Assembly (NCBI RefSeq): GCF_037902255.1
Contig: NZ_CP147990.1
Location: 750,001 to 782,000, forward strand
DNA length: 32,000 nt
Direction of reading: 5' to 3'
Source: Candidatus Electrothrix sp. GW3-4
GTDB lineage: Bacteria > Desulfobacterota > Desulfobulbia > Desulfobulbales > Desulfobulbaceae
This document shows positions 13,716 through 32,000 of this stretch, piece after piece. Below the pieces are notes generated by a model. The model worked only from the letters and a program-made list of their open reading frames with translations, was not told the DNA's origin and searched no databases. The position numbers and the translations under genes are program-made. Position 1 is the first letter of the stretch. Each line of letters opens with the position of its first letter.

Positions 13716-13784
13716 TCCTCTTGAAAGGGGGGCTGTGGGGGCTATTGCCTGTATAATTCAACGATCAGATCTTCACGAAAAATC

Positions 13785-15419: not shown

Positions 15420-15444
15420 GACAGTTTTTTTGCTGCTGGGAGAG

Positions 15445-15531
15445 ATCCTGAAATAAAATCAATATCCTGAATCAAAGTGTTTGTCTTGAAGGCTAATTTA
15501 TTATATAGATGAAGAATTGAAGGTTAATTCA
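15445..15531 (+). repeat. Two pairs of direct repeats in the AT-rich tssA-tssB spacer (candidate regulator sites)
   Basis: ATCCTGAA occurs at 15445-15452 and 15464-15471, a 19-nt period. TTGAAGGCTAATTTA (15486-15500) and TTGAAGGTTAATTCA (15517-15531) match at 13 of 15 positions with a 31-nt period. I read both pairs directly from the sequence. Confidence 0.5.
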
Positions 15532-15547
15532 GCAAAAGAGGATACAG

Positions 15548-16036: not shown

Positions 16037-16045
16037 GAGAACGTT

Positions 16046-17545: not shown

Positions 17546-17618
17546 GAGACCAGCACGAATTGCGGGCAGAAACACCATTGGGTAATAATCAGACAAGGAA
17601 CACGATAAGGAGATTATC

Positions 17619-18107
17619 ATGGCATTAAACGCATATCTTACCTTAAAGGGTGAAACACAGGGCGATATCAAAGGTTCCGTGACCCAAGCGGGCCGGGAGG
17701 ACTCCATCATGGTCATAGCCACTGATCATGAGATCAACTCACCGCGCGATGCTGCTTCCGGGCTGCCAACCGGTAAGAGGCAGCATGGGCCGTTCACGAT
17801 ATGCAAGGAGATCGACAAGGCAACACCGCTCCTCTATTCTGCCTTGGTTAATAATGAGAATATCACCGAGTTTAAGATAGAGTTCTGGCGTCCTTCTGCT
17901 TCAGGCAAGGAAGAACAGTTTTTTACCATTGAACTGGTAAATGCCTCTATTTCCAAGATCCACCACGAGATGCTGAATAATAAATATCCTGAAAATATGC
18001 AGCATAGAGAACGGGAACATGTGTCATTTTGCTACCAGAAAATAACCTGGACCTGGATGGACGGCGGCATCACGGCTGACGATGACTGGGAAGCCCCAAT
18101 GGCCTGA
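17619..18107 (+). CDS. hcp: T6SS tube protein Hcp (TssD)
   Basis: The translation begins MALNAYLTLKGETQGDIKGSVTQAGREDSIMVIATDHEI...GKRQHGPFTICKEIDKATPLLY. The protein is 162 aa, and AAGGAG lies upstream. Confidence 0.95.
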   Translation: MALNAYLTLKGETQGDIKGSVTQAGREDSIMVIATDHEINSPRDAASGLPTGKRQHGPFTICKEIDKATPLLYSALVNNENITEFKIEFWRPSASGKEEQFFTIELVNASISKIHHEMLNNKYPENMQHREREHVSFCYQKITWTWMDGGITADDDWEAPMA

Positions 18108-18156
18108 TGAAGGAAAAAGATCGGGAGAAAAGGATAGGGTAAAAGGCAGGTGAGCA

Positions 18157-18570
18157 ATGCGGGAAGCCAGATTATTAGAACGTATCCGGCAGCGGAATCG
18201 AGACCCCCAGCGACGGGAGGGCGAGGATCTGTCCAGAGTGATTGACTCTGTGCAGGAGCATCTGCGCCAGATCCTCAATACCCGCCAGGGGAATGTACCG
18301 ATCTCAGAAGAATACGGCACCCCTGATTTTACCGAGTTTCTAACCGATTATCCACAATCCCTGCACGGCTTTGAGCGGGCGATCCGCCATACGGTCAGGC
18401 TGCATGAGCCGCGTTTGCGAGCTGTGCGGGTGCTCTTTATCCCGCAGGAAGATGACCTGCTCTCATTACGGTTCCGGATCTTTGCAAAGCTGGCAATTGC
18501 AGGATCCCATGAGGCAGTGGTCTTTGAGAGCCTTGTTGATTCCGAGGGTAAGATAAGTATAAAAGATTGA
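18157..18570 (+). CDS. tssE: T6SS baseplate protein TssE (gp25-like)
   Basis: The sequence LLERI...VIDSVQEHLRQILNTRQGNVPISEEYGTPDF has the GPW/gp25 pattern. The protein is 137 aa. Confidence 0.88.
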   Translation: MREARLLERIRQRNRDPQRREGEDLSRVIDSVQEHLRQILNTRQGNVPISEEYGTPDFTEFLTDYPQSLHGFERAIRHTVRLHEPRLRAVRVLFIPQEDDLLSLRFRIFAKLAIAGSHEAVVFESLVDSEGKISIKD

Positions 18571-18584
18571 TGCACCCCTGAGAG

Positions 18585-20318: not shown

Positions 20319-21313
20319 GAGATGACCTGAAGCTCAGTCTGCTGAAAAGAGGGAGAGAGTTTTCCTTTATTCAGGCCGTACGCCTGCTGCGTCTCTATAC
20401 AGCTGCCCCCTCGACCCAGGATGCCGCTGTACCGTACCAACACGAGCTGCTGCAGATCGTGCCTCATCTCTCCTTGGCCTTTCCGGCCAGTGATCTTGAA
20501 TCTGTTGAAGAGCATATTTCATCGGAAGAAGAAAATACCTTTAAGATAGAGGCTAATTTTCTCAGCCTGTACGGGACCTGTTCGCCCTTGCCGGTCTTCT
20601 ATACAGAAGAGCTGCTTGATGAAGCCGGGGAAGAGGAGTCTGCCAGCCGTGATTTTCTGGATATCATCCACCAGCGGCTTTATCTGGTATTCTTTCAAAG
20701 CTGGTTGAAATATCGCCAGTTTCAGCAGGTCTGTGAAGAGCAGGATCAGGGCCATCTTGATCGTCTTTTTTGCCTGCTCGGGCTGGGTGAGTCAGATTTC
20801 CGCCAAGGCCTTGGAGATACCCAGGAGCTCCTGCGCTATATTGGCCTGTTTAGCCAGGCTCCGCGTTCTGCCCAAGGCCTGAAGACCATCCTGACCGATA
20901 GCCTGCATCTGCCTGTTGAGATAATCAGCTGTGTGCAAAGAAAGGCCAAGATTCCCGAGGACCAGCGGATCCGGTTGGGTGCAGATGAGGTCGGCCTCGG
21001 CCAGGACAGCTTTCTTGGTGAAGAACTGGATGATCGGGCAGGAAAATTCAGGGTCAGGATTGGTCCCCTGGATAAAGCCAATTATCAGGCCCTGTTTCCC
21101 GGCAGTGTCCTGTATAATAAGGTGGTTATGCTGACGGAACTCTATGTGACGGATCCCTTGGAGTATGATATCGAGGTGATAATGGCGGAGCAGCAGGCGC
21201 GGACCGTCTGTCTTGGCAATGAGCAGTGGTCAAGGCTTGGTCTGGACAGCTGGCTGTCTTCTGAAGAATATATTGGGGAAAAAACCAATCTGTTTACACC
21301 GGCAGGGCATTAA
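20282..21313 (+). CDS. tssG: T6SS baseplate protein TssG
   Basis: The sequence contains REFSFIQAVRLLRLY and ANFLSLYGTCSPLPVFYTEEL. The gene overlaps the 3' end of tssF by 37 nt. The protein is 343 aa. Confidence 0.88.
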   Translation: MASPDRRTPTDLRDDLKLSLLKRGREFSFIQAVRLLRLYTAAPSTQDAAVPYQHELLQIVPHLSLAFPASDLESVEEHISSEEENTFKIEANFLSLYGTCSPLPVFYTEELLDEAGEEESASRDFLDIIHQRLYLVFFQSWLKYRQFQQVCEEQDQGHLDRLFCLLGLGESDFRQGLGDTQELLRYIGLFSQAPRSAQGLKTILTDSLHLPVEIISCVQRKAKIPEDQRIRLGADEVGLGQDSFLGEELDDRAGKFRVRIGPLDKANYQALFPGSVLYNKVVMLTELYVTDPLEYDIEVIMAEQQARTVCLGNEQWSRLGLDSWLSSEEYIGEKTNLFTPAGH

Positions 21314-21390
21314 CGGCATTTTTACTGCCCTTGTGTGTAAGGTGCGTGCAAGAGGCGTGCAGGAAAGAATTTCAAAACTGGTGAGGTATC

Positions 21391-24035
21391 ATGCTGACCG
21401 TTGATATTAAATTGCTTTTAGAACGACTCAATCCCTTCTGCACCCGCTCTCTTGAGGCGGCAGCCGGTCTCTGTGTGGCCCGAACCCATTATGAGGTCAC
21501 CCTTGAACATTTTTTGCTCAAGCTTATTGAGCAGGAAGGGACCGACATCCCCCTCATCCTCCGCCATTATGGTATTGATGTCGGTCAATTTACTCAAGGG
21601 CTTGATGCCGTGCTGGAAGAGTTCAGGGCTGGCAATGCGGGTAAACCGGTCTTTTCCCCCATCCTGATGGAGTGGCTCCAGGAGGCCTGGCTGATTGCCT
21701 CGGTGGACCTTGAGGAAGAAAGCCTCCGCTCGGGTGCCCTGCTGCTGACCCTGATAAAGACCCCGACCCGCTTCGCCTCTGGGGCATTTCTTGAGCTGTT
21801 GGCCGATATCAGCTTTGATGCCTTGAAGAAAGAATTTTGGCCGATAGTCCAGGAGTCTGGGGAACAGCCCGCAGCAGGAGCAGCTGGAAGCGGGAAGGAG
21901 GGCGCGGTTCCCCAGGATGCCACGGCCTTGGGAAAATACTGCGTTGACTTTACTGAAAAGGCCCTGCAGGGAGAGATTGATCCTGTCTTTGGTCGGGATC
22001 AGGAGATCCGGAAGATGATTGATATCCTGGCCAGGAGACGGAAGAATAATCCCATCGCCGTGGGTGAGGCAGGGGTCGGCAAGACAGCCGTGGTAGAGGG
22101 CCTTGCCCTGCGTATTGCGGAAGGGGATGTACCGGAACTCTTGCAGAACGTGGCAGTCCTTGGCCTTGATATGGGTCTGTTGCAGGCTGGCGCTGGCATG
22201 AAGGGCGAGTTTGAGAATCGACTCAAATCGGTCATCAATGAGATCAAGGCCTCTCCAAAACCGATTATTCTCTTTATTGATGAGGCCCATACCCTGGTTG
22301 GGGCCGGTGGTGCGGCAGGGCAGGGGGATGCGGCAAACCTTTTGAAACCCGCCCTGGCACGGGGGAGTTACGCACGGTTGCTGCCACCACCTGGACGGAG
22401 TATAAAAAGTATTTTGAAAAGGACCCTGCCCTGGCCAGACGGTTTCAGCCGGTCAAGCTGGAAGAACCCTCTGTTGAAACCACCATCCTGATCCTGCGCG
22501 GTCTGAAACAGAAATATGAGGAGGCGCACGGGGTGCTTGTCCGGGATGATGCGGTTGTTGCGGCGGCAGAACTGTCCAGCCGTTATATTTCCGGGAGGCA
22601 GTTGCCGGATAAGGCAGTTGATCTGCTGGATACCAGTGCCGCCAGGGTCAAGGTGCTGCTGACGGCCAAACCGGATGCTCTTGAGGACAAGGAGCGGGCT
22701 GTTCAGGCCCTGAACCGGGAAAAAAAGGCCATGGAACGGGATAAAACCCACGGCATTGCAGTGGATCAAGAGCGCTTGGCCGTCATTGCCGCAGAACTGG
22801 GCGAGCTTGCCCAAGAGATTGAGGTATTGACCGGGCAATGGCATAAGGAACAGGCCCTTGCAGAACAACTGATCAGCATCCGGCAGGAACTGTTCGCGGC
22901 CAAGGAAGCGGCAGCAGGTGGAGAAGAGGGAAAGGAGACAGCAGCCCTTGAACAGGAGCATCACAGGATCAAGGAGGCCTTTGAGGCGGCTCGCCAGCAA
23001 CAACCGCTTGTGCGGATAGAGGTGGACCCGGATATCGTGGCCAAGGTGGTCTCTGACTGGACCGGGATTCCCCTGGGCAGTGTGATGCGGGATCAGGCGG
23101 CAAATCTTGTCGATCTGGAAGAACGCTTACAGAAGAGGATCAAGGGGCAGGACAGTGGCCTGGCAGCGATTTCCGAAGTGATCAAGGCGGCAAAATCAGG
23201 CCTCAAGGATCCTGCTCAGCCCCTGGGCATCTTCCTCCTGGTCGGGCCGAGCGGGGTGGGCAAGACAGAAACCGCCCTGGCCCTGGCCGATCTGCTCTTT
23301 GGCGGCGAACGTTTTGTCACTGCCATTAATATGAGCGAGTTTCAGGAACGCCATACCCTGAGCCGTCTGGTCGGCTCACCTCCGGGCTATGTGGGCTATG
23401 GGGAGGGCGGGGTCCTGACTGAGGCGGTCAGGCAGCGCCCCTATTCCATCGTTCTGCTGGACGAGGTGGAGAAGGCCAACTTGGAGGTCATGAATCTCTT
23501 TTACCAGGTCTTTGATAAGGGGACGCTTTCCGATGGTGAGGGCCGGGTGATTGATTTTAAAAATACGGTCATCTTTCTCACCTCCAATCTGGCCACCGAT
23601 GTGATTACCGAGATGAGCAGCGGCGATGAACCCCTGCCGCCCGGGGTTATTATGAACGCTGTCCGGCCCATTCTGAGTAACCATTTCAAACCAGCGCTCT
23701 TGGCCCGCATGACGATCGTTCCCTATCTTACCCTTGCCCAGGATGTCCTCTTGGATATTGTTGTCCTGAAATTGGATAAACTGGCCCGGAGGATGGCCGA
23801 GACCCACAAGATGCGCTTGAGTTATAGTGATGCGGTGGTTCAGCAGATAGCGGCCCGTTGTACCGAGGTCGAGACCGGGGCCAGGAATATTGACCATATC
23901 ATGAACGGCACGGTCCTGCCCCAGATGTCCAAGGAAATCCTGCTCCGCATGAGTGATCAGGCCATGCCTGAACAGGTCCGTCTTGATATCGATCAGGGAG
24001 GGCGTTTTATCCTTCAATTCGATGAAGCCGTATAA
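21391..24035 (+). pseudogene. clpV: ClpV (TssH) AAA+ ATPase, split into two ORFs (21391-22491 and 22533-24035) by a -1 frame break at the G5 run 22361-22365
   Basis: ORF 1 carries the ClpV N-domain, Walker A (GEAGVGKTA) and ILFIDEAH. It then degenerates after ...LLKPALARG. Shifting by -1 at cGGGGGa restores [58 protein letters not shown], which runs without a stop into ORF 2. ORF 2 carries the second Walker A (GPSGVGKTE). This could be a real frameshift or an assembly indel. Confidence 0.9.
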
Positions 24036-24080: not shown

Positions 24081-26321
24081 ATGGCTGTTGAAGAGAATAT
24101 CCGATTCGCCTTTACCTCTGCGGCGCTGCCAGAGGAAACCTTTGTCGTGGCCGAGTTCCGTGGTACCGAGGCGATGTCAAAACTCTATCGCTTTGACATC
24201 ACCCTCTATGCCGACGATCCGGAGATTGATTTGAAAGCAGTTCTCAAGAATCCGGTGAAACTGACTGTTGAAAAAGACGGTGAGGTCCTGCGTCGCTTTC
24301 ATGGTGTCCTGTCCCGCTTTGAGCAGCTTCATGAATACTCCGGCCATGCCTATTTCCGGGCGGTGTTGGTCCCGCGCCTGTGGATAGCAGATCAATATCA
24401 GGAAAACCAGCTCTTTCTTGATAAGAAAATTCCTGATATTATAGAAGATGTCCTCAAGCAGACCGGTCTCACCTCTCTTGATTATGAACTGCGGCTCACC
24501 GGAACCTACCGGGCCTGGGAATACATCTGTCAGTATAATGAGACAGATTTCAACTTTATTTCCCGCTGGATGGAACGGGAGGGGATTTACTATTATTTTG
24601 AGCAGGGCGAGGATGCGGAAAAAATAATTATCACGGACAGCTCCACGGCTCACGAGAATATCGCCTCCAGTGATTCCATCCGCTATTCACCGCCGGATTC
24701 GCTCTCCCCCACCTCTATGCATCAGGTTCGGGAGTTCACCTGTCATCAGCAACTGCTGCCCAAAAAGGTGGTACTCAAGGATTATAATTATCGCAAGCCC
24801 TCCTTGGACCTGAAGGGAGAGGCGGATGTGGACCCGGAAGGTCGTGGGAATGTCTCTATCTACGGAGAGCATTTCAAGACCCCGGAAGAAGGGAATGCCC
24901 TGGCCGCAATCCGGGCCGAAGAGCTGTTATGTCGGGAGGCCCTGTTCTTTGGCGAGGGCACGGTGCCTTCCTTTCTCACCGGGTATTTTTTTGAGATGCA
25001 TGATCATTATCGAGATTCGTATAACCAGCGCTACCTGATCACCGAGCTCTCCCATCAAGGGGTGCAGTCCACCTATCTGACTGGTGCGGGTGGGGCGGAT
25101 CTGGCACCAGAAAAACAGACCCCTGCCTATGTGAATACGTTCAGCGCCATCCCGGCAGCTGTACAGTTCAGGCCGGAGCGGTTGGCCGAGAAGACCAGGC
25201 TGGATGGGACCTTGAACGCCACCGTAGATGCGGCAGGTGATGGTCAGTATGCGGAGATTGATGATCAGGGGCGGTACAAGGTGAAGCTGCCCTTTGATCA
25301 AAGCAATGCAGCTGACGGCAAGGCCTCGCGCTGGGTGCGAATGGCCCAGCCCTATGCCGGGGCAGATTACGGCATGCATTTTCCCCTGCATAAGGGAACC
25401 GAGGTCCTGTTGACCTTTGTTGATGGTGATCCTGATCGACCCATTATTGCCGGTACTGTACCTAACCCGGAAACAGGAAGTCCGGTGACCGGAGCAAATC
25501 AGTCCCAGTCCATGATTCGGACAGCAGGGGGGAATCAGATACGTATTGAAGATAATGATGGTGGGCAGCAGATTCATATGTCTTCGCCGACGAGCAATTC
25601 TATTATTTCTTTGGGTGATGTGAATGAAGGTAATATATTTTTAAAATCAGATGGTACTTGGGTTTCGAAAATTGGTGATAATGCAATTGAAAAACTTGGT
25701 GCTGATAAAAGGACATATGTTAAAGGTTCTGAGGTGAAAGATATTACTGGTAATCAAGGTGTCCATATCGGTGGCAGTCAGGCTCTTGTTGTAAATACTA
25801 ACAGGGATGTAATAGTTTACGGGAAAGAAAACAAAGAAGTAAAAGGTAATTCATGGTGCAAAGTTAATGGCCCGAAAAGCAGCATGACAGTTGGTGCTAC
25901 ACATGAAGTTTGTGTAGCAGCAAAAGCAACACAAAGCCTCTCCGCAGTTAGTGATGTTACCGTTGGTGTTAAACAAGGAGCTTTTGCCGGAGCAAATATT
26001 GAAACTAACGCCGCTGCAAAACTTGAGTTTAATGCAACTGTAAAATATGAAAAATCTGTCACGAAAAGCAATAAAGCTGTGAAGATTGAACAGGATGCAA
26101 CAGGCCTCATCAAGCTTATTTGCGGAGGAAGTTCTATTAAGATGACCCCTGGCTCGATTGAGATAAACTCTCCTAAAATTTTAATCAAAGGGAGTCCAAT
26201 TGATATAGAAGGAGGGCTTGTCCGTTTGAAAGGTAATATTCAGAATAAAGACGGTTTGAAATCCAATAAAGATTCCTTTTTTGATAAAGCTATTCATGCC
26301 AAAAATTTTTCATCGTTATGA
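24081..26321 (+). CDS. vgrG: T6SS spike protein VgrG (TssI) with a divergent AT-rich C-terminal region
   Basis: The sequence AEFRGTEAMSKLYRFDITLYADDPEIDL...FISRWMEREGIYYYFE...RWVRMAQPYAGADYGMHFPLHKGTEVLLTFVDGDPDRPIIAG...NQIRIEDNDGGQQI is the gp27/gp5-like VgrG core. The protein is 746 aa. Confidence 0.95.
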   Translation: MAVEENIRFAFTSAALPEETFVVAEFRGTEAMSKLYRFDITLYADDPEIDLKAVLKNPVKLTVEKDGEVLRRFHGVLSRFEQLHEYSGHAYFRAVLVPRLWIADQYQENQLFLDKKIPDIIEDVLKQTGLTSLDYELRLTGTYRAWEYICQYNETDFNFISRWMEREGIYYYFEQGEDAEKIIITDSSTAHENIASSDSIRYSPPDSLSPTSMHQVREFTCHQQLLPKKVVLKDYNYRKPSLDLKGEADVDPEGRGNVSIYGEHFKTPEEGNALAAIRAEELLCREALFFGEGTVPSFLTGYFFEMHDHYRDSYNQRYLITELSHQGVQSTYLTGAGGADLAPEKQTPAYVNTFSAIPAAVQFRPERLAEKTRLDGTLNATVDAAGDGQYAEIDDQGRYKVKLPFDQSNAADGKASRWVRMAQPYAGADYGMHFPLHKGTEVLLTFVDGDPDRPIIAGTVPNPETGSPVTGANQSQSMIRTAGGNQIRIEDNDGGQQIHMSSPTSNSIISLGDVNEGNIFLKSDGTWVSKIGDNAIEKLGADKRTYVKGSEVKDITGNQGVHIGGSQALVVNTNRDVIVYGKENKEVKGNSWCKVNGPKSSMTVGATHEVCVAAKATQSLSAVSDVTVGVKQGAFAGANIETNAAAKLEFNATVKYEKSVTKSNKAVKIEQDATGLIKLICGGSSIKMTPGSIEINSPKILIKGSPIDIEGGLVRLKGNIQNKDGLKSNKDSFFDKAIHAKNFSSL

Positions 26322-26361: not shown

Positions 26362-28590
26362 ATGGAAATTATCAATAAAGCTAATTGGCGGTTTGCCCCG
26401 ATAGCGGGCAGGGTGAACTTTCCAGGGCATACCCTTACCCTGATCGTCAAAGGTACCTTTGACCTGAAACACGGGGATACAGCCACCATTTCCGAAGAAC
26501 AACTCTACCCCACTGGCGATGAGTATTACCCGGATGATGAACAGCAGCAGAGCGTCCGCTACGAATCCGATTTTGCTTTCTATAAACCCAAGGCTGATTT
26601 ACTTCTTGTCGGCAAATGCCATACACCCCAAAAGACACCTCTTCAAACCTGTAGCGCAACCTTTCAAGTCGGTACAAATCAGTCAACCGTAGCCGTCCAT
26701 GGCAATCGCTACAAGCAGCCGATAGTCAAGACAGCCTCTGCGCCTGAACCGTTTACGGCTATGGATATTCGCTATGACAAGAGCTTTGGTGGACCGGGGT
26801 ATGACAAGAATCCGATCGGCAAAGGGTATGGACAGGATAAAGCAGCTGGCACGGCTGCTGAGAGAAGTCCGCTCCCCAATATAGAAAGCAGCCATCTACA
26901 TTCCGTTGCCGGTGAACCGGCTGGTTTTGGTCCCTTAAATAAAATGTGGCCACAGCGTTATTCCAAAATGGGTACCTATGAGAACAGCTGGCTGAAAGAA
27001 CGTTGGCCTTGGTTCCCGCTTGATTTCAGCTGGGAGTATTATAATGCCGCCCCAAAAAATATGCAGGTCAACGGCTATCTCAAAGGTGATGAACCGCTTA
27101 TTTGTACAAACCTGCATCCTGAAATCCCGGTCTATCAAACTAAACTTCCCGGTCTGAGGGTCCGGTGCTTTACTGACAGAATCATTTCGACAGACCAGGA
27201 TGAAGCCAAATTTTCCGAAGTAAAAATGAACCTGGATACACTTTGGGTTGATATGGAGGAGGAAAAACTCGTTCTTGTCTGGCGCGGTGTTACCAAAGTG
27301 CTGTCGGAAGACTACGAGGAAATTCAAGGGCTTTTTATCGTTTCAGAACAGCTTGATGAATCTCCCCGTTCAATAGAAGATTGCCGGAAAGATTTTTTGG
27401 CCGCCCTTGCTGCGGAAGACGCTCCTTTTGAAGAGGAATTCCCTGAAACAGAAAGCGTAGACGATGAACCAACTGTTTCCATAGAAGAAGAAATACAAAA
27501 GGCGGAACTGGAAGTTAAAAAAGCCCAGGAAGAATTAGAGAAAGAGTTGAAAGAAGCAGGTATTGAACCTGTACAGGATATCCCGGAGCCGAGTCAGGAA
27601 GACAAAAAAATGGAGGCCCGCATTCTGGCCCGATACGGACTTGATAAAGTCACTACAGAAGAACCGCTGACTCGGGAAAAAATTATCGAACGACTGGCCA
27701 ATAATGAATCCTTTGCTGAAGAAGATTTTTCAGATCTTGACCTCTCTGAACTGAATCTTCGCGGTGGGGATTTCAGAGAAGCTGTCTTCTCCAAGGTAAA
27801 TCTCAAAAATGCCCTTCTTGATGAAGCGATCCTGACCGAAGCAAATTTTTCCCAGGCTGACCTGACCGGGGCTTCATTAAAAAAGGCGGATGCCTGTGAA
27901 GCGGACTTTACCGAAGCATGTCTCAACGGTGCTGATTTGAGTGAGGCTGTCCTTCAAGATACGATTTTTGAACAAGCAAGAATGACGGAGGCTGTCCTGG
28001 ATAATGCACAGGCTGTGGACGGATACTTCTCTGAAGCAGATTTGTCGGGAGCCAGCCTGAAAAACGCAATATTGGATGGTGCTGACTTTTCAAATACGCT
28101 CCTGCATAAGGCGGATTTCCATAAGGCAAGCCTTAAAGAAGCAACTTTGGATGCTGCCCAAGGAGAACAACTCAGCATGAGAGAGTGCGATCTCACCGAA
28201 TTGCGTGCTTCGAAGAAGTGTTGTTTTCCTGAAGGAAATTTTACGCGGGTGATCGGTAATGATTCCACATGGGAAGAGGCGGAATTAACCGGAGCTGATT
28301 TTTCTTGCTCAGATATGGCGGCGGCTGATTTTTCTTCTGCAATACTTAAAGGGGTGAACTTTCTCGCCGCAGACATGAAACAAGCCAAATTCGCCAAAGC
28401 AAATCTGCAGGCAGCACGTTGTATCAGCATGAATCTGTTTGAATCCAGTTTTGAAAATGCCAATTTAATGCAGACTGACTTTACCGGCTCCAATCTTTAC
28501 GGGACAGAATTTTTGGGGAGTCAGCTGAAGGATACAATATTCAAGTCTGCAAATTTAAAAATGACCAAACTTACAAATGGCTACTATTGA
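26362..28590 (+). CDS. DUF2169-domain (T6SS adaptor family) protein fused to a C-terminal pentapeptide-repeat domain
   Basis: N-terminal segments fit my recollection of the DUF2169 pattern: IVKGTFDL, YESDFAFYKPKADLLLVGKCHTP, YDKSFGGPGYDKNPIGKGY, PAGFGPLNKMWPQRYSKMGTYENSWLKERWPWFPLDFSWEYYNAAP and LDTLWVDMEEEKLVLVWRG. An acidic coiled-coil-like linker follows (EEEIQKAELEVKKAQEELEKELKEAG). The C-terminal part consists of many A(D/N)(L/F)xx pentads (ANFSQADLTGASLKKADACEADFTEACLNGADLSEAVL...). Confidence 0.85.
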   Translation: MEIINKANWRFAPIAGRVNFPGHTLTLIVKGTFDLKHGDTATISEEQLYPTGDEYYPDDEQQQSVRYESDFAFYKPKADLLLVGKCHTPQKTPLQTCSATFQVGTNQSTVAVHGNRYKQPIVKTASAPEPFTAMDIRYDKSFGGPGYDKNPIGKGYGQDKAAGTAAERSPLPNIESSHLHSVAGEPAGFGPLNKMWPQRYSKMGTYENSWLKERWPWFPLDFSWEYYNAAPKNMQVNGYLKGDEPLICTNLHPEIPVYQTKLPGLRVRCFTDRIISTDQDEAKFSEVKMNLDTLWVDMEEEKLVLVWRGVTKVLSEDYEEIQGLFIVSEQLDESPRSIEDCRKDFLAALAAEDAPFEEEFPETESVDDEPTVSIEEEIQKAELEVKKAQEELEKELKEAGIEPVQDIPEPSQEDKKMEARILARYGLDKVTTEEPLTREKIIERLANNESFAEEDFSDLDLSELNLRGGDFREAVFSKVNLKNALLDEAILTEANFSQADLTGASLKKADACEADFTEACLNGADLSEAVLQDTIFEQARMTEAVLDNAQAVDGYFSEADLSGASLKNAILDGADFSNTLLHKADFHKASLKEATLDAAQGEQLSMRECDLTELRASKKCCFPEGNFTRVIGNDSTWEEAELTGADFSCSDMAAADFSSAILKGVNFLAADMKQAKFAKANLQAARCISMNLFESSFENANLMQTDFTGSNLYGTEFLGSQLKDTIFKSANLKMTKLTNGYY

Positions 28591-30409
28591 AGACATGAAG
28601 GGGTTCTTGACCTCTGCTGATGTCGTCGAGGCGGTTCGGGCCGGTTCGGCAATAGAAAATACCCTGCTGAATGAAATTGATTTAAGCGGTCTTGATTTAC
28701 AGGGCGCAACGTTTGACACTGTCACTTTTAATGCGGTTCATTTGACAAATACAGACCTGCGCGGGGCAACGTTGAATAATGTTGTTTTCAATAACTGCAT
28801 TATGTCCGGCGTTGATTTCACCGAGGCGAAACTTGCCGGAACAATCTTTGTCAATGCAGATTGCTGTCAGGCCAATTTTGTCCGTGCAGATCTTGCAGAT
28901 GCTCTTTTCCTTGTCGATAATGTTCCGGAAAAGGATCAGGAAAAAGTTCTCTTTGAGTTTGATGCCTTTGAGCTTGATGAAGATACGCAGAACGTCCTAA
29001 GAGAGCAAGGGATCGTCGGTTTTTCCAAGGGAAAAATGCGGCTCTGCAGTACGGATTTCAGTCAGGCAAATCTCAAAGGGGCCATGTTCATGGAAGCAGA
29101 ACTGGATGAAGTGCTCTTTCAGGAATCAATCCTTGAACGGGCACGATTTGAGGACTGTTCGCTGTTGGCAGCTACGTTTACAAAGGGTCTCCTTGATAAC
29201 ACGTTATTTGAGACAACCAATTTAAGTAACGCTGTTTTTTCAGAAGTTAATCTGCATGAGACAACATTTAAGGAAGTGAATTTTACAGATATTGATTGCA
29301 GAACAGCCGTCCTTGAACAAACCGAATTTCACAATACTGTTTTCACCTCGTTTAAGGAGGCGTTTCCTGCTCAACTGACAGGTTGTGTTTTTGAGGATTG
29401 TGACTTGCATGGGAAAAATTTTTCCGAAATGCAGTTTTCCGAGTGTACTTTCAATAATTCCAATTTGGAGAACGCCAAAATAAAAGACGCTCAATTTATT
29501 GAAGCTTCATTTCACAAATCATTTATGCCGCAGCTGGATTTCAGCGGTCAGGCCCTCTGTGACGCAGATTTTTCTGATACTGAACTTCAGGGAGCAAAGT
29601 TTTGCCGATGTAATTTGACGGACGCTGATTTTTCCGGAGCAAATCTGAAAGGAGTTGATTTCAGCAAGGCCTTGCTGGACAACACAGATCTTGCAAAAAG
29701 TGAGCTTCATGCCGCAAATTTTACTGAAGCAACCATGCAGTATTGTGATATGAAGCAGTGTAATATGGAGCAGGTTAATTTGACCCATGCCTCACTTGAG
29801 CGCACTGATCTTCCAGGAGTTGATTTTACTCAAACAAAAATAAAGCAGACGAAGTTTGTCTTATGCAAGCTGGCAGAGTGTAACTTCAGCGGCATGGACC
29901 TTACCGGATGTGATTTCACGGATGCTGACTTCACCTCAGCCAAGATGCAGAATACCCGATTAAATCGGGCCGTCCTCAAGCAGGCAAATTTCTTCAAAGC
30001 TGATTTACGGAACAGTACCTTGCAGGGGGCATCTTGTGATACAGCTGATTTCACGGAAGCTGTTCTTGATAGCGCAAATTTTAAGAATGCATTTTTGTCT
30101 TGCTCCTGTTTTCTCCATACCAATGCGCGACAAACCGATTTTTCAGGTGCAAATCTGGAGCGGGCTGAATTTACTTATGCGGATTGCCATGGCTCGAATT
30201 TTTCGCATGCCCGGATGAAATACAGCGATTTGTCTCACGCGAACCTGCAAAATTGTGATATGGCAGAAGCGAATCTTCTTCAGTCGGTCATGCATTGCAC
30301 TAGGGATGTCGGCACCAATTGGAAAGGAACATCCAGACTGCTTGTAGAGACAACAGACAAAGACCTTGCTGCTGCGGAAAACTGGAAGCCGCCTCGTTCT
30401 TCAATCTAA
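28577..30409 (+). CDS. Large pentapeptide-repeat protein (610 aa)
   Basis: The protein consists almost entirely of tandem pentads (e.g. ANLKGVDFSKALLDNTDLAKSELHAANFTEATMQYCDMKQCNMEQVNLTHASLERTDL). Its start overlaps the previous gene by 14 nt. Confidence 0.88.
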   Translation: MATIEDMKGFLTSADVVEAVRAGSAIENTLLNEIDLSGLDLQGATFDTVTFNAVHLTNTDLRGATLNNVVFNNCIMSGVDFTEAKLAGTIFVNADCCQANFVRADLADALFLVDNVPEKDQEKVLFEFDAFELDEDTQNVLREQGIVGFSKGKMRLCSTDFSQANLKGAMFMEAELDEVLFQESILERARFEDCSLLAATFTKGLLDNTLFETTNLSNAVFSEVNLHETTFKEVNFTDIDCRTAVLEQTEFHNTVFTSFKEAFPAQLTGCVFEDCDLHGKNFSEMQFSECTFNNSNLENAKIKDAQFIEASFHKSFMPQLDFSGQALCDADFSDTELQGAKFCRCNLTDADFSGANLKGVDFSKALLDNTDLAKSELHAANFTEATMQYCDMKQCNMEQVNLTHASLERTDLPGVDFTQTKIKQTKFVLCKLAECNFSGMDLTGCDFTDADFTSAKMQNTRLNRAVLKQANFFKADLRNSTLQGASCDTADFTEAVLDSANFKNAFLSCSCFLHTNARQTDFSGANLERAEFTYADCHGSNFSHARMKYSDLSHANLQNCDMAEANLLQSVMHCTRDVGTNWKGTSRLLVETTDKDLAAAENWKPPRSSI

Positions 30410-30423
30410 GCGGGAGATTAGAT

Positions 30424-31275
30424 ATGACAAAAATTGCTTCACTTTATCCTGTAGACTACACAAAGCGTTTCTCTGCCCAGGAAGCAGAAATAGTTTCTTT
30501 TGACCGGGAAAAAAGAACCGCAAAAATACATATTGACACCCTGCCGGAGATACAGGCGATAGATGCCGCTCTGGCCCTGCCTTATGATATTGATTTGAGC
30601 TGTGGGGATAAGGTGCTTATTGCCGGTGAGGATATACGCAGTATCTATATCATTGGAGTATTGTCAGCAAAAGCGTTCGCAACAATACGCGCAGATAACG
30701 GTGCCTATGCTCGCCTTGATAATGACAGGACATCCCTGCAGATTTTCTCTCCACATAATAAACTTATTATTGAATATGATACAGGAAAAGATACAACTAC
30801 AGTGAGTTCTCTTACCGGCAATATGGAATTCAATTCTCCGGAATCTATAACCTTCCAAAGCAACTCAATTGATTTTACGGGCAAAGATAAGATCAAAATG
30901 AAGGTGCAGGATGATAGCAAAGGTTCTCTCTCAACATTGTCGTTGGGAAATTACCAAACTAAGCTGAATTGTCCTGATTTGCATGTAACAGCAAAGAATG
31001 GAAATTTATTTGTAGATCAGCTGAAAATTACAGGGCAAAGAGTGCTGACGAATCTGGTGCAGGCAACGCTCAATATAAGCAAGATTGAAACAAAGGCAAA
31101 AACACTTATCCATAAAGCACAGGATATGTATCAGTCAGTTGAATGCCTTTCTCAGCTCAAAACCGGCAGACTGAAAATGCTGATCAAATCAACCTGCCAC
31201 ATTAAGAGCAAGGATACCGTATTAAAAGCCGAAGAAGACTTCAAGGTAAAGGCTGAAGAGATTAATCTGGGGTAA
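30424..31275 (+). CDS. DUF3540-like protein (function unknown, T6SS island)
   Basis: I prefer ATG 30424 (GGGAG upstream) to the ORF-track start at 30319, which would overlap the previous gene by 91 nt. The segment LSCGDKVLIAGEDIRSIYIIGVL, followed by a repetitive beta-strand-like body, fits my recollection of DUF3540. This family typically accompanies DUF2169, pentapeptide and DUF4150 genes. The family call is from memory and has not been searched. Confidence 0.6.
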   Translation: MTKIASLYPVDYTKRFSAQEAEIVSFDREKRTAKIHIDTLPEIQAIDAALALPYDIDLSCGDKVLIAGEDIRSIYIIGVLSAKAFATIRADNGAYARLDNDRTSLQIFSPHNKLIIEYDTGKDTTTVSSLTGNMEFNSPESITFQSNSIDFTGKDKIKMKVQDDSKGSLSTLSLGNYQTKLNCPDLHVTAKNGNLFVDQLKITGQRVLTNLVQATLNISKIETKAKTLIHKAQDMYQSVECLSQLKTGRLKMLIKSTCHIKSKDTVLKAEEDFKVKAEEINLG

Positions 31276-31309
31276 TTTTAACTTTTATGAAATCGATGGA
31301 GAATTTCAC

Positions 31310-31726
31310 ATGGTAGCAATATTTCCAGCGTCTACAAAAGGTGGGGGAAACTGTCTGGGCGCACCGGATGTCTGTCTGACTCCCGCTCCTCCAGCACCCC
31401 CTGTTCCGACACCGTATCCTAATAGCGGCATGGTGAATCAGGCCAAAAAAACTTCCAAGAAGGTAAAATTTGCCGGAAAAGAAGCTGTTACGGTGAGTTC
31501 TGAAATATCCCGTTCTATGGGGGACGAAGCCGGAGTTAATAAAGGCGTGATGTCCGGCATGAATATGAGTAAAATAACATTTAAGAAAGGAAGCTCCAAG
31601 GTCAAGGCGCAGGGAAAGAAATGTGTCCATCTTACATCCGTCACAGGCCATAATGGCAGTAATGCCAATATGCCAGCAGGTGCTCAGATCGCTCCGAGTC
31701 AAACTAAAGTGAAAGTTGCTCCCTAA
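31310..31726 (+). CDS. DUF4150 PAAR-like spike-tip protein with no C-terminal toxin domain
   Basis: The sequence GAPDVCLTPAPPAPPVPTPYPNSGM...KKVKFAGKEAV...SMGDEAGVNKGVMSG...SSKVKAQGKKCVHLTSVTGHNGSN matches the DUF4150 pattern (PDVC.TP...P.PYPN, GDEAG). The protein is only 138 aa. GGAG lies upstream. Confidence 0.85.
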   Translation: MVAIFPASTKGGGNCLGAPDVCLTPAPPAPPVPTPYPNSGMVNQAKKTSKKVKFAGKEAVTVSSEISRSMGDEAGVNKGVMSGMNMSKITFKKGSSKVKAQGKKCVHLTSVTGHNGSNANMPAGAQIAPSQTKVKVAP

Positions 31727-31767: not shown

Positions 31768-32000
31768 ATGAGTAGTTCACTCCAAAAGATACAGCCCCCC
31801 CTGCCATTCTGGCCTCAGCCACCTGGCCGGGCGGGCAGTGTGCAGAGCAGCGATTCGTTGACTCCTTCCGTATCGGTCGGGATCCGGCCTGTGCTCTATC
31901 CATATCCCTGATCCGGTGGTCAGTCGGGAGCACGCCGAGGTCGTGCTGCTGGCTGATAGCTGGTGGGCAATCTGTTCCGCGCTAAAGATCGGAACGACCG
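31768..32000 (+). pseudogene. FHA-domain gene start (T6SS Fha/TagH-type candidate); readable only across three frames and truncated by the window edge
   Basis: The ATG at 31768 gives MSSSLQKIQPP up to a C7 run (31795-31801). The -1 frame then gives ...QRFVDSFRIGRDPACALSIS. A second -1 shift near CCC (31906-31908) gives PDPVVSREHAEVVLLADSWWAI.... The motifs FRIGR..C and DP.VSR.HA are FHA hallmarks. No single frame contains both. Confidence 0.6.

What the first reader, a model, noticed from the sequence alone, without database searches (positions are those of the whole stretch)
26362..31726. Post-vgrG island with no recognisable toxin: DUF2169::pentapeptide fusion, 610-aa pentapeptide protein, DUF3540-like protein and a bare PAAR-like cap
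**What the sequence shows.** Four co-directional genes sit directly behind vgrG. They are packed for co-translation: a 40-nt gap, a 14-nt overlap, a 14-nt gap and a 34-nt gap. Together they encode about 1770 aa. By eye I find no enzymatic toxin signature and no small immunity-like ORF. The DUF4150 protein is only the PAAR-like cap, with no C-terminal extension.

**Established knowledge.**
- DUF2169 acts as an adaptor and DUF4150 as a PAAR-like carrier for a fused toxin, as in the Agrobacterium Tde2 system.
- Pentapeptide-repeat proteins fold as right-handed quadrilateral beta-helices.
- Some of them (MfpA, Qnr) mimic DNA and bind gyrase.

**Inference.** In this locus the pentapeptide proteins may play one of two roles:
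- They could be the payload, a non-enzymatic DNA-mimic effector.
- They could be a structural sleeve or chaperone around the divergent VgrG tail and PAAR-like tip.

As far as I recall, neither role has been shown experimentally for this gene set. The adaptor domain is also covalently fused to a pentapeptide domain through an acidic coiled-coil linker (about 27400-27720).
Basis: partly seen in the sequence, partly recalled or inferred. Interest (0 to 1): 0.8.

Follow-up and report, generated by a model that had tools for sequence, protein, structure and literature searches.

The report
Known T6SS spike-tip chaperone module
The four genes behind vgrG are a typical copy of a recently characterised set of helper proteins (TvpAB, TvpB, TvpC and a small PAAR-like cap) that build the tip of the type VI secretion spike inside the cell, found here in a cable bacterium, so the finding is real but largely already explained.

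Summary
**Observation: confirmed.**
- Four co-directional genes follow vgrG with exactly the stated spacings.
- They encode a DUF2169::pentapeptide fusion (742 aa), a pentapeptide protein (610 aa), a DUF3540 protein (283 aa) and a bare DUF4150/PAAR-like protein (138 aa).
- No toxin fold was found in any of them.

**What it is.**
- This is the published "Class III Tvp" module: TvpAB-TvpB-TvpC-Paar1, formerly tagAB/tagB/tagC/tagD of Burkholderia T6SS-5, and "DUF2169 synteny type C".
- In Serratia marcescens these proteins form a TvpC pre-complex. VgrG then replaces TvpC. TvpAB and TvpB have never been detected as secreted (PMC13373197).
The "DNA-mimic payload" option is not. The claim that neither role had been tested is out of date.

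- The TvpC model matches phage, pyocin and eCIS central spikes.
- The TvpAB model is DUF2169, then helices, then a β-helix.
- The gene order is kept in all 31 genome loci retrieved, across many phyla.
- The acidic Tvp proteins complement a basic VgrG tip and cap.

**Caveat.** A contig identical to the window's end shows a 5'-truncated Rhs-CT/WHH nuclease and SUKH immunity pair. It starts 237 nt after the PAAR-like gene and was inserted into a decayed FHA-SLT gene.

**Source.** Ca. Electrothrix (antwerpensis) GW3-4. This is a new member of a known kind.

The parts
24081..26321 (+). vgrG (746 aa): gp27/gp5 core followed by a long beta-helical C-terminal part, with no toxin domain
   Evidence: - Pfam: Phage_GPD, Phage_base_V and Gp5_trimer_C. 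NCBIfam: TIGR03361, E 3.5e-117.
- Aligns to a solved VgrG-Rhs protein (8qja_A) over residues 25-735, matching its residues 23-718. Aligns to the T4 gp5 beta-helix over 527-629.
- The C-terminal part (470-746) is basic, pI 9.2.
26362..28590 (+). tvpAB (tagAB): DUF2169 domain (residues ~1-330), acidic helical connector (~331-450), pentapeptide beta-helix (~455-735)
   Evidence: - Pfam DUF2169, E 4.4e-85, plus Pentapeptide, E 1.3e-46.
- PDB sequence hit to 8vth_A (DUF2169 crystal structure), E 4.5e-24.
- AF2 model with mean pLDDT 79.4; the beta-helix is above 95.
- Foldseek best hit is 8vth_A (E 3e-14, TM 0.73). All other hits are pentapeptide proteins or other beta-solenoids. No toxin fold.
- Homologous to Burkholderia savannae TagAB-5.
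28577..30409 (+). tvpB (tagB): stand-alone 610-aa pentapeptide-repeat protein, strongly acidic (net -42)
   Evidence: - Pfam Pentapeptide, E 3.9e-89, in 13 stretches.
- BLASTP to the annotated TagB-5 of B. savannae, E 1.1e-34.
- The five-residue register is visible along almost the whole protein.
- Always sits between tvpAB and tvpC in related loci.
30424..31275 (+). tvpC (tagC): DUF3540 protein, a spike-like VgrG stand-in without a gp27 domain
   Evidence: - Pfam DUF3540, E 2.1e-19.
- AF2 model with mean pLDDT 65.6. The N-terminal beta part scores 73-88; the C-terminal 90 residues are unreliable.
- Foldseek PDB hits: PVC spike 9qgm_8A (E 6.4e-5), AFP spike 6rbk_C, R2 pyocin spike 4s37, phage P2 gpV 3qr8.
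- Hits in the viral library include Gp5/Vgr OB-fold proteins, a baseplate hub and a central spike.
- 1884 family representatives at E <= 1e-3.
31310..31726 (+). paar1/tagD-type DUF4150 (PIPY) PAAR-like cap, 138 aa, no effector domain, basic (pI 10.0)
   Evidence: - Pfam PF13665, E 1.6e-32, covering residues 15-119.
- 44% identical to B. savannae TagD-5.
- 59-93% identical across phyla.
- The ORFs matching it are 131-168 aa in the related loci, apart from one 280-aa mechanical ORF in L039.
31779..31966 (+). Frameshifted N-terminal remnant of an FHA-TM-SLT (lytic transglycosylase) gene that follows the module in relatives
   Evidence: - tblastn with the L003 protein: its residues 8-49 and 45-69 match in two different frames, at 57-80% identity.
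- The intact gene is present in L003, L004/L005, L017 and L025, and cut by the contig end in L011.
31963..32000 (+). Start of a 5'-truncated Rhs C-terminal fragment (406 aa, WHH nuclease tip) that runs off the window. A SUKH immunity gene follows it.
   Evidence: - L001 is identical to window 22572-32000 and continues past the window end.
- Pfam: RHS repeat, RHS, WHH (E 6.4e-13). The next gene is SMI1_KNR4/SUKH (E 2.6e-19).
- The fragment aligns only to the last ~150 residues of solved Rhs cores of 1065-1530 aa.
- Stop codons lie immediately upstream in its frame.
6554..24035 (+). Context: the rest of a complete T6SS cluster (tagH-like, tssJ, K, L, M, A, B, C, hcp, tssE, F, G, clpV)
   Evidence: Pfam assignments. 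The order tssBC-hcp-tssEFG-clpV-vgrG-tagAB-tagB-tagC-tagD matches Burkholderia T6SS-5 (PMC6335564).

Best explanation
**What it is.** The four genes are a Class III Tvp accessory module: tvpAB, tvpB, tvpC and a paar1-type DUF4150 gene. Older names are tagAB/tagB/tagC/tagD. It belongs to the T6SS of the cable bacterium Ca. Electrothrix (antwerpensis) GW3-4.

**Mechanism, taken from the Serratia marcescens homologues and inferred here.**
1. TvpC is a trimeric spike look-alike, with an OB-fold and a short beta-prism but no gp27 domain.
2. TvpC receives the small, basic, hydrophobic PAAR-like cap on its tip.
3. The DUF2169 domain of TvpAB shields the cap.
4. The helices and pentapeptide beta-helix of TvpAB, together with TvpB, wrap around the tip like a belt.
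5. This pre-assembled cap is then handed to the long beta-prism of the real VgrG, and TvpC leaves.
6. The sleeve stabilises the VgrG-PAAR tip. It probably also fills the baseplate cavity that a fused toxin would otherwise occupy.
7. The Tvp proteins stay behind in the cell when the spike is fired.

**Consequence.** The pentapeptide proteins are assembly chaperones, not cargo. Toxic cargo, if any, travels by other routes: Hcp-bound effectors, the VgrG itself, or effectors encoded elsewhere.
For: **Shown here.**
- All five family assignments hold.
- TvpAB N-terminus matches the solved DUF2169 structure 8vth_A by sequence (E 4.5e-24) and by fold (E 3e-14, TM 0.73).
- The TvpAB model has three parts: DUF2169, four helices and a continuous beta-helix. 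No other domain is present.
- The TvpC model matches central spikes of PVC, AFP, R2 pyocin and phage P2 gpV, and Gp5/Vgr OB-fold and baseplate-hub proteins in the viral library.
- The order vgrG-tvpAB-tvpB-tvpC-bare PAAR-like is kept wherever the contig reaches far enough, in all 31 genome loci and in the metagenome loci. These come from Desulfobulbaceae, Desulfosarcina, Planctomycetota, Ignavibacteria, Nitrospirota, Acidobacteria, Spirochaetaceae, Bacteriovoracaceae and Gammaproteobacteria.
- There is direct homology to the annotated TagAB-5, TagB-5 and DUF4150 proteins of a Burkholderia savannae T6SS-5 cluster with the same gene order.
- Charges are complementary. The PAAR-like cap is +13 and the VgrG tip +7. 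The TvpAB connector is -21, its beta-helix -23 and TvpB -42.
- None of the proteins has a signal peptide or a TM-like segment.
- Several related loci have no toxin next to the module (L006; L010).

**From the literature.**
- TagAB-5 is needed for Hcp-5 secretion (PMC6335564).
- The Burkholderia tag genes are required for sheath assembly (PMC13584744).
- Both the DUF2169 domain and the pentapeptide domain are needed in B. glumae (PMC8747328).
- DUF2169 synteny type C has been described (PMC11883445).
Against: - No experiment exists for this organism, and no complex could be modelled here.
- The TvpC model is only moderately confident. Its last ~90 residues came out as a low-confidence helix in the monomer, so a beta-prism tip is not demonstrated.
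- TvpC shows no significant sequence similarity to the window's own VgrG. Its link to Burkholderia TagC-5 is weak (hhalign E 2.9e-4, probability 40%).
- TvpB is 610 aa here against 354 aa for TagB-5, and TvpC is 283 aa against 246 aa. The geometry of the sleeve may therefore differ.
- Whether this T6SS has a second VgrG, as in the studied systems, is unknown.
- clpV is split in the window, though this is probably a sequencing error.
Confidence: 0.85

Rival explanations
1. The pentapeptide-repeat proteins are the secreted payload. They would act as non-enzymatic DNA mimics, like Qnr or MfpA, and poison gyrase in target cells.
For: - Both proteins are strongly acidic beta-helices.
- They give partial hits to Qnr, MfpA and AlbG models and structures.
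- No toxin lies within the four genes.
Against: - Scores are far below family cut-offs. For Qnr, 69.7 and 121.5 bits against a cut-off of 240. For MfpA, 46 and 82 bits against 360. Any pentapeptide protein gives hits of this kind.
- Homologous TvpAB and TvpB co-purify with VgrG1 and TvpC, are required for firing, and were never detected in secretomes (PMC13373197).
- TagAB-5 loss abolishes Hcp secretion, which is the phenotype of a machine part, not of an effector.
- No immunity gene accompanies the module in any locus.
- The acidity is equally well explained by the basic spike tip they would wrap.
Confidence: 0.03
2. The module exists to load the downstream Rhs-CT/WHH nuclease as cargo of this VgrG-PAAR spike, with the SUKH protein as its immunity.
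For: - A WHH nuclease-tipped Rhs fragment starts 237 nt after the PAAR-like gene on the same strand, and a SUKH immunity gene follows it.
Against: - The Rhs piece has 406 aa and aligns only to the last part of 1065-1530-aa Rhs cores. It therefore lacks the shell and any loading domain.
- It begins at a GTG directly after in-frame stop codons.
- It sits inside the wreck of an FHA-SLT gene that is intact in relatives.
- It is absent from every related locus.
- It is followed by ParE and VapBC toxin-antitoxin cassettes, typical of an insertion hot spot.
Confidence: 0.06
3. The VgrG-PAAR spike is itself the weapon, and the Tvp sleeve keeps it harmless until firing. The weapon would be a cryptic C-terminal peptide or a mechanical membrane depolariser, as proposed for S. 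marcescens VgrG1.
For: - S. marcescens VgrG1 delivers a membrane-depolarising activity with no separate toxin domain.
- Here the last ~60 residues of VgrG are the most variable part. They occur in two alternative versions among close relatives.
Against: - No Vai1-like (DUF3192) immunity gene follows vgrG; tvpAB starts 40 nt after it.
- The last 26 residues are hydrophilic, with mean hydropathy -1.03. The Serratia tail is hydrophobic.
- This reading adds to the chaperone explanation rather than replacing it.
Confidence: 0.1
4. The locus is a decaying, non-functional T6SS, so the module has no current role.
For: - clpV is split into two ORFs in the window.
- The FHA-SLT gene is destroyed.
- Toxin-antitoxin and orphan-toxin cassettes have accumulated at the end of the cluster.
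Against: - The clpV split is one G in a G-run. An independent assembly (L002) has the extra G and an intact 881-aa ClpV.
- The genome is a Nanopore assembly with acknowledged gene fragmentation (PMC11247825).
- All other T6SS genes and the four Tvp genes are intact. The Tvp and VgrG proteins are 73-93% identical to those of a relative, L003.
Confidence: 0.07

Closest known systems
Class III Tvp accessory system of Serratia marcescens Db10 (TvpAB, TvpB, TvpC, Paar1 with VgrG1; Monlezun, Earl & Coulthurst, EMBO J 2026, PMC13373197)
   Same: - Same five-gene set downstream of vgrG, in the same order.
- DUF2169 fused through helices to a pentapeptide domain.
- A separate pentapeptide protein.
- A DUF3540 spike mimic.
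- A small DUF4150 cap with no toxin.
- A long VgrG (746 aa against 786 aa) with no recognisable toxin domain.
   Different: - No vai1 (DUF3192) or second gene lies between vgrG and tvpAB.
- The VgrG C-terminal tail is hydrophilic.
- The host belongs to a different phylum (Thermodesulfobacteriota).
- It is unknown whether a second VgrG exists.
Burkholderia T6SS-5 tagAB-5/tagB-5/tagC-5/tagD-5 (Shalom 2007; Hopf 2014; review PMC6335564); annotated copy in B. savannae pMSMB0266 (L040)
   Same: - Identical block order: tssBC-hcp-tssEFG-clpV-vgrG-tagAB-tagB-tagC-tagD.
- TagD-5 is 44% identical.
- TagAB-5 and TagB-5 are detectably homologous, with E 1e-19 to 1e-34.
   Different: - Burkholderia VgrG-5 carries a C-terminal fusogenic effector domain (994 aa).
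- TagB-5 is 354 aa against 610 aa here. TagC-5 is 246 aa against 283 aa.
- TagC-5 is related only at profile level.
- That system targets eukaryotic cells.
DUF2169 'synteny type C' (Sachar et al., JBC 2025, PMC11883445)
   Same: - A multidomain DUF2169-pentapeptide protein sits next to a pentapeptide gene, a DUF3540 gene, a DUF4150 (PIPY) gene and vgrG.
- The DUF2169 fold matches their crystal structure 8vth.
   Different: That study characterised type A systems experimentally (P. aeruginosa, V. parahaemolyticus). Type C was described only by genomics.
Class I / Class II Tvp systems (Agrobacterium Tap2-Tde2; P. aeruginosa PA0096-PA0098-Tse7; V. parahaemolyticus VP1398-VP1415)
   Same: The DUF2169 chaperone pairs with a DUF4150 PAAR-like domain on a dedicated VgrG.
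   Different: - In those systems the PAAR-like domain is fused to a toxin.
- They have no pentapeptide domains.
- TvpC is absent (Class I) or is the short DUF6484 type accompanied by TvpD (Class II).
Qnr / MfpA / AlbG DNA-mimic pentapeptide proteins
   Same: A right-handed quadrilateral beta-helix built of five-residue repeats, with an acidic surface.
   Different: - Those are ~200-aa dimeric cytoplasmic gyrase protectors.
- Here the model scores are far below family cut-offs.
- The proteins here are much longer. One of them is fused to DUF2169.
- They are locked in synteny with spike parts.

Membership tests
Class III Tvp accessory system (TvpAB/TvpB/TvpC/Paar1; tagAB/tagB/tagC/tagD; DUF2169 synteny type C) | The first gene encodes an N-terminal DUF2169 (TvpA) domain. 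| tested here: met
   - Pfam E 4.4e-85.
- Sequence hit to 8vth_A, E 4.5e-24.
- Foldseek E 3e-14, TM 0.73.
Class III Tvp accessory system (TvpAB/TvpB/TvpC/Paar1; tagAB/tagB/tagC/tagD; DUF2169 synteny type C) | The DUF2169 domain is fused, through alpha-helices, to a C-terminal pentapeptide-repeat domain. | tested here: met
   - Pfam Pentapeptide, E 1.3e-46, at residues ~447-742.
- The model shows helices at 338-446 and a beta-helix at 455-735 with pLDDT above 95.
Class III Tvp accessory system (TvpAB/TvpB/TvpC/Paar1; tagAB/tagB/tagC/tagD; DUF2169 synteny type C) | A separate pentapeptide-repeat protein (TvpB) is encoded immediately downstream. | tested here: met
   - 610 aa, Pfam E 3.9e-89, 14-nt overlap with tvpAB.
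- Homologous to the annotated TagB-5, E 1.1e-34.
Class III Tvp accessory system (TvpAB/TvpB/TvpC/Paar1; tagAB/tagB/tagC/tagD; DUF2169 synteny type C) | TvpC belongs to DUF3540. | tested here: met
   70.7 bits against a cut-off of 27.9, E 2.1e-19. Only profile positions 93-199 align.
Class III Tvp accessory system (TvpAB/TvpB/TvpC/Paar1; tagAB/tagB/tagC/tagD; DUF2169 synteny type C) | TvpC folds as a VgrG-like OB-fold plus beta-prism trimer without a gp27 domain. | tested here: inconclusive
   - No Phage_GPD match.
- The monomer model's best hits are central spikes: 9qgm, 6rbk, 4s37 and 3qr8, with E 6e-5 to 2e-3, plus viral Gp5/Vgr OB-fold proteins.
- However, mean pLDDT is 65.6, TM-scores are about 0.2-0.3, and the C-terminal 90 residues are unreliable.
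- A trimer could not be modelled.
Class III Tvp accessory system (TvpAB/TvpB/TvpC/Paar1; tagAB/tagB/tagC/tagD; DUF2169 synteny type C) | A small DUF4150 (PIPY) PAAR-like protein without an effector domain. | tested here: met
   - 138 aa; PF13665 covers residues 15-119.
- 44% identical to TagD-5.
- ORFs matching it in the related loci are 131-168 aa, apart from one 280-aa mechanical ORF in L039.
Class III Tvp accessory system (TvpAB/TvpB/TvpC/Paar1; tagAB/tagB/tagC/tagD; DUF2169 synteny type C) | The gene order vgrG-tvpAB-tvpB-tvpC-paar is conserved. | tested here: met
   Seen in the window, in the 31 genome loci and the metagenome loci as far as each contig reaches, and in B. savannae T6SS-5.
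Class III Tvp accessory system (TvpAB/TvpB/TvpC/Paar1; tagAB/tagB/tagC/tagD; DUF2169 synteny type C) | The partner VgrG is about 700-800 aa with an unusually long beta-prism and no classical toxin domain. | tested here: inconclusive
   - 746 aa. It aligns with the VgrG part of 8qja_A up to residue 735 and with the T4 gp5 beta-helix.
- No other Pfam domain.
- The prism length in angstroms was not measured, because no VgrG model was made.
Class III Tvp accessory system (TvpAB/TvpB/TvpC/Paar1; tagAB/tagB/tagC/tagD; DUF2169 synteny type C) | - A TvpC-TvpAB-TvpB-Paar1 pre-complex forms.
- VgrG then replaces TvpC.
- All components are required for firing.
- The Tvp proteins are not secreted. | not testable with these tools
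   Known only from S. marcescens experiments (PMC13373197).
Qnr/MfpA-type DNA-mimic pentapeptide proteins | Score above the curated family cut-off of the Qnr or MfpA models. | tested here: not met
   - Qnr model NF033086: 69.7 and 121.5 bits against a cut-off of 240.
- MfpA: 46.1 and 82 bits against a cut-off of 360.
Specialised DUF4150/PAAR effectors (Tde2, Tse7, VP1415 type) | A toxin domain is fused C-terminally to the PAAR-like domain. | tested here: not met
   The 138-aa protein ends 19 residues after the domain.
Rhs polymorphic toxin (the gene starting at 31963, outside the finding) | A full YD-repeat shell with an N-terminal loading (PAAR or other) region. | tested here: not met
   - 406 aa in total.
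- Only residues ~142-288 align, to the last ~150 residues of 1065-1530-aa Rhs cores.
- In-frame stop codons lie directly upstream.
Rhs polymorphic toxin (the gene starting at 31963, outside the finding) | A variable C-terminal toxin after the DPxGL motif, plus an adjacent immunity gene. | tested here: met
   WHH nuclease E 6.4e-13 at residues 334-377. The next gene is SMI1_KNR4/SUKH, E 2.6e-19.

The most novel reading that the evidence does not exclude
**Proposed reading.** In cable bacteria and many poorly studied environmental phyla, the Class III Tvp-dependent, toxin-less VgrG-PAAR spike could be the only spike of the T6SS.

**What points that way (none of it proves the reading).**
- It has a recombining, hypervariable VgrG C-terminal tail.
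- It has a recurrent neighbour: an FHA-TM-SLT lytic transglycosylase next to Ser/Thr kinase and phosphatase genes. This suggests a phospho-regulated, T6SS-dedicated enzyme that opens the cell wall.

**Why it would matter.** It could be relevant for firing through an envelope that carries periplasmic conductive fibres. Alternatively, the variable VgrG tail could itself be the effector or the cargo dock.
Probability: 0.15. Interest if true: 0.55.

Novelty: new member of a known kind. Interest (0 to 1): 0.22.

Why it matters
**For the finding itself: little.**
- The gene set, its fusion architecture and its role as an intracellular spike-tip assembly scaffold have been published. The genes were named in 2007, surveyed in 2025 and worked out mechanistically in 2026.
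- A genome annotator can simply label the four genes tvpAB, tvpB, tvpC and paar (DUF4150).

**Modest added value.**
- It documents a complete T6SS with a Class III Tvp module in a cable bacterium. No paper in the searchable library mentions a T6SS in this group.
- It shows that the module is strictly syntenic across at least eight phylum-level lineages.
- It shows mosaic exchange of VgrG and the PAAR tail against a conserved TvpB/TvpC core.
- It flags an FHA-SLT neighbour that may deserve its own study.

Tried and rejected
- **TvpC against the window's own VgrG.** BLASTP best E 0.27. hhalign of the TvpC family against VgrG C-termini gave probability 1.5%. There is no detectable sequence relationship, so the spike-mimic claim rests on fold and on the literature.
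- **Word-indexed homologue searches with TvpC**. These reached only the ~290-aa environmental clade, not Serratia or Burkholderia. The link to characterised proteins came instead from a tblastn of the PAAR-like protein against plasmids, which found an annotated B. savannae T6SS-5.
- **Promoter and terminator scan** around the paar/Rhs junction. Nothing above chance, so whether the Rhs fragment is co-transcribed remains open.
- **Hidden toxin search.** Pfam, NCBIfam, PDB sequence and fold searches of the four proteins and VgrG found none. The only stretches not covered by a domain are the acidic helical connector of TvpAB (~309-446) and the last ~40 residues of TvpB.
- **Literature on T6SS in cable bacteria.** No paper was found.
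- **Genome paper.** PMC10926707 was checked for GW3-4 and does not mention it. The genome paper is PMC11247825.

Full report
**1.

The ORF list, and gene calls on two contigs that carry identical proteins, give the following coordinates:
- vgrG: 24081-26321, 746 aa.
- ORF1: 26362-28590, 742 aa.
- ORF2: 28577-30409, 610 aa.
- ORF3: 30424-31275, 283 aa.
- ORF4: 31310-31726, 138 aa.

The sum is 1773 aa.

Pfam confirms every family:
- ORF1: DUF2169 (E 4.4e-85, residues 23-308) plus pentapeptide repeats (~447-742).
- ORF2: pentapeptide repeats along its whole length (E 3.9e-89).
- ORF3: DUF3540 (E 2.1e-19, above the curated cut-off; only the C-terminal half of the profile aligns).
- ORF4: PF13665 "Tox-PAAR-like" (the family known as DUF4150) over residues 15-119 of 138.

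Its net charge is -21, and the model predicts four helices there.

**2. Where the window comes from.**

The DUF3540 protein is 100% identical to a protein of "Candidatus Electrothrix sp. GW3-4", on a 4.64-Mb contig. This is the cable bacterium Ca. Electrothrix antwerpensis GW3-4. Its genome is a Nanopore/Flye assembly polished with Illumina reads (PMC11247825).

The window carries a complete T6SS cluster: a tagH-like gene, tssJ, K, L, M, A, B, C, hcp, tssE, F, G and clpV. vgrG and the four genes follow. The block tssBC-hcp-tssEFG-clpV-vgrG-tagAB-tagB-tagC-tagD has the same order as Burkholderia T6SS-5 (PMC6335564; annotated B. savannae copy).

**3. What the four genes are.**

The set has been named and studied.
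- Shalom et al. (2007) called the Burkholderia genes tagAB, tagB, tagC and tagD.
- A 2026 review lists all four as required for sheath assembly.
- In B. glumae, the DUF2169 part, the pentapeptide part and the separate pentapeptide protein are each needed.
- Sachar et al. (JBC 2025) solved a DUF2169 structure. They defined "synteny type C" as a DUF2169-pentapeptide fusion, a pentapeptide gene, DUF3540, DUF4150 and vgrG. This type accounts for about 37% of DUF2169 genes.

Monlezun, Earl & Coulthurst (EMBO J 2026, PMC13373197) worked out the mechanism in Serratia marcescens:
- VgrG1 replaces TvpC to give VgrG1-TvpAB-TvpB-Paar1.
- All components are essential for Hcp secretion through the VgrG1 route.
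- TvpC is predicted to be an OB-fold plus beta-prism VgrG mimic without gp27.
- TvpAB and TvpB were never detected as secreted.
- Class III systems go with small toxin-less PAAR proteins and long VgrG prisms.
- The authors propose that the sleeve also fills the baseplate cavity.
- They list Thermodesulfobacteriota, the phylum of Electrothrix, among the phyla that carry TvpA.

**4. Tests made here.**

(a) TvpAB.
- By sequence, its N-terminus matches the solved DUF2169 protein 8vth_A (E 4.5e-24).
- An AlphaFold2 model built from 42 homologues has mean pLDDT 79.4.
- The model shows a beta-rich DUF2169 domain, four helices (338-446) and an uninterrupted pentapeptide beta-helix (455-735, pLDDT above 95).
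- The Foldseek best hit is 8vth_A (E 3e-14, TM 0.73). All other hits are pentapeptide proteins or other beta-solenoids. No toxin fold appears.

(b) TvpC.
- A model built from 15 homologues has mean pLDDT 65.6. The N-terminal beta part scores 73-88. The last ~90 residues are a low-confidence helix.
- Its best PDB matches are central spikes of contractile injection systems: PVC 9qgm_8A (E 6.4e-5), AFP 6rbk_C, R2 pyocin 4s37 and phage P2 gpV 3qr8.
- In the viral library it matches Gp5/Vgr OB-fold, baseplate-hub and central-spike proteins.
- This agrees with the published spike-mimic idea. TM-scores are low, however, and a trimer could not be modelled, so I rate the fold test as inconclusive but favourable.
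- Sequence comparison of TvpC with the window's own VgrG found nothing.

(c) VgrG.
- It aligns with the VgrG part of a solved VgrG-Rhs protein up to residue 735, and with the T4 gp5 beta-helix over residues 527-629.
- The C-terminal "divergent tail" is therefore mostly more beta-prism, not a toxin.

(d) Homology to characterised members (B. savannae T6SS-5).
- TagD-5: 44% identical.
- TagAB-5: E 1.6e-19 for the DUF2169 part and 8e-33 for the repeats.
- TagB-5: E 1.1e-34.
- VgrG-5: 37% identical over 600 residues.
- TagC-5: related only at profile level (hhalign E 2.9e-4, probability 40%), ending on the same ...I(N/D)LG.

(e) Synteny.
- A profile scan of one genome per species returned 31 loci.
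- They come from Desulfobulbaceae, Desulfosarcina, Planctomycetota, Ignavibacteria/Melioribacteraceae, Nitrospirota, Acidobacteria, Spirochaetaceae, Bacteriovoracaceae and several Gammaproteobacteria.
- All of them, and the metagenomic loci, keep vgrG-tvpAB-tvpB-tvpC-PAAR-like wherever the contig extends far enough.
- The ORFs matching the cap are 131-168 aa, apart from one 280-aa mechanical ORF in L039.

(f) Family sizes.
- The DUF3540 family has 1884 representatives at E <= 1e-3, and most of the top hits are ~290-300 aa, like this one.
- The DUF2169::pentapeptide fusion has 941 clusters at E <= 1e-10.

(g) Charge.
- The cap (pI 10.0, +13) and the VgrG tip (pI 9.2, +7) are basic.
- The TvpAB connector (-21), its beta-helix (-23) and TvpB (-42) are acidic.
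- None of the proteins has a signal peptide or a TM-like segment.

**5. The "no toxin" claim.**

It holds inside the coordinates. The window's last 9.4 kb, however, are 100% identical to contig L001, which continues 4.4 kb further.

A 406-aa ORF begins at window position 31963, 237 nt after the PAAR-like stop.
- It has RHS repeats, the RHS core end and a WHH (HNH/EndoVII) nuclease.
- A SUKH/SMI1_KNR4 immunity gene follows it.
- ParE-like and VapBC (MazE-like antitoxin/PIN) cassettes come next.

- The fragment aligns only with the last ~150 residues of 1065-1530-aa Rhs cores.
- It starts at a GTG right after in-frame stop codons.
- It lies inside the frameshifted stump (31779-31966) of an FHA-TM-SLT gene that is intact downstream of the module in relatives.
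- No related locus has this cassette.
- Some related loci end the cluster with housekeeping or signalling genes (L006; L010).

I read it as an orphan rhs-CT/immunity cassette that landed in an insertion hot spot.

**6. Mechanism and confidence.**

Shown here: family membership, domain architecture, a spike-like TvpC fold (moderate confidence), conserved synteny, homology to the Burkholderia set, absence of toxin folds, and charge complementarity.

Inferred from S. marcescens: formation of the pre-complex, the TvpC-to-VgrG hand-over, non-secretion, and filling of the baseplate cavity.

Confidence:
- 0.85 that this is a Class III Tvp chaperone module.
- About 0.7 that the two-step hand-over applies unchanged. 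TvpB (610 aa against 354 aa in TagB-5) and TvpC (283 aa against 246 aa) are larger here, and the number of VgrGs in this genome is unknown.

Rivals:
- Secreted DNA-mimic payload: 0.03.
- Loader for the downstream Rhs fragment: 0.06.
- The spike itself as the weapon, on top of the chaperone role: 0.10. No Vai1/DUF3192 gene is present, and the VgrG tail is hydrophilic.
- Decaying system: 0.07. The clpV split is one G in a G-run, and an independent assembly has an intact gene.

**7. Novelty and score.**

The thing is real, and it is a new member of a known kind. The fusion is common.

What is new is the host, since no paper in the library links cable bacteria with a T6SS, and some side observations:
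- A mosaic VgrG and cap tail against a conserved TvpB/TvpC core.
- The FHA-SLT neighbour.

Interest: 0.22.

Noticed in passing
window 21391-24035 (G-run at ~22361-22366): clpV is split into two ORFs by one missing G in a run of G's. An independently assembled contig (L002) has six G's and an intact 881-aa ClpV. The source genome is a Nanopore assembly with acknowledged gene fragmentation, so this is probably a residual homopolymer error rather than a pseudogene.
   Followed up: yes
window 31779-31966; intact copies at L003 12971-14455, L004 12130-13599, L025 11222-12658: A frameshifted N-terminal stump of an FHA-TM-SLT gene: a cytoplasmic FHA domain, one TM helix and a lytic transglycosylase. 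In several relatives from different lineages this gene lies downstream of the PAAR-like gene: directly after it in L011 and L025, and after one or more intervening genes in L003, L004 and L017. In L003 and L004 it is followed by FHA, PP2C phosphatase, trypsin-like protease and Ser/Thr kinase genes. It may be a phospho-regulated, T6SS-dedicated cell-wall remodeller. It is lost in GW3-4.
   Followed up: partly
window 31963-32000, continuing in L001 9392-13114: An orphan 5'-truncated Rhs fragment with a WHH nuclease tip, plus a SUKH immunity gene. ParE-like and VapBC (MazE-like antitoxin/PIN) toxin-antitoxin cassettes follow. Together they form an insertion hot spot at the end of the T6SS cluster. 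Part of the VapBC region recurs at 86% identity in Ca. Electrothrix marina (L009).
   Followed up: partly
window 24081-31726 compared with L010 (Electrothrix sp. YB6), L009 and L003: Mosaic history.
- Against YB6: TvpC is 98% identical, TvpB 93% and the C-terminal two-thirds of TvpAB 86-100%. VgrG is only 50% identical, and the last third of the PAAR-like protein 55%.
- The last ~60 residues of VgrG occur in two alternative versions that do not follow overall VgrG relatedness.
- This suggests recombination that swaps spike tips against a conserved chaperone core.
   Followed up: partly
window 31310-31726 and homologues (alignment A3): The PAAR-like cap is unusually conserved, at 59-93% identity across phyla with 80% mean column identity. 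TvpC from the same loci is only 28-45% identical. This fits a tightly constrained structural tip, not a toxin.
   Followed up: partly
window 5095-7300: A 424-aa ORF (5095-6369) directly upstream of the T6SS genes has no Pfam match. The tagH-like protein (6554-7300) has only the T6SS_FHA_C domain and no recognisable FHA domain.
   Followed up: partly
L010 92-6127 (Electrothrix sp. YB6): In YB6 two vgrG genes (923 and 749 aa), and no clpV, precede the Tvp module in the 10 kb of upstream flank retrieved. There the module may sit in a vgrG island, or the organism may have more than one spike type.
   Followed up: no
L007 4795-11834 / L008 4230-11269: In a distant relative of uncertain taxonomy, the PAAR-like gene is followed by three co-directional genes (649, 179 and 1425 aa) with no Pfam match. 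They are candidates for unknown effector/immunity proteins associated with a Class III module.
   Followed up: no
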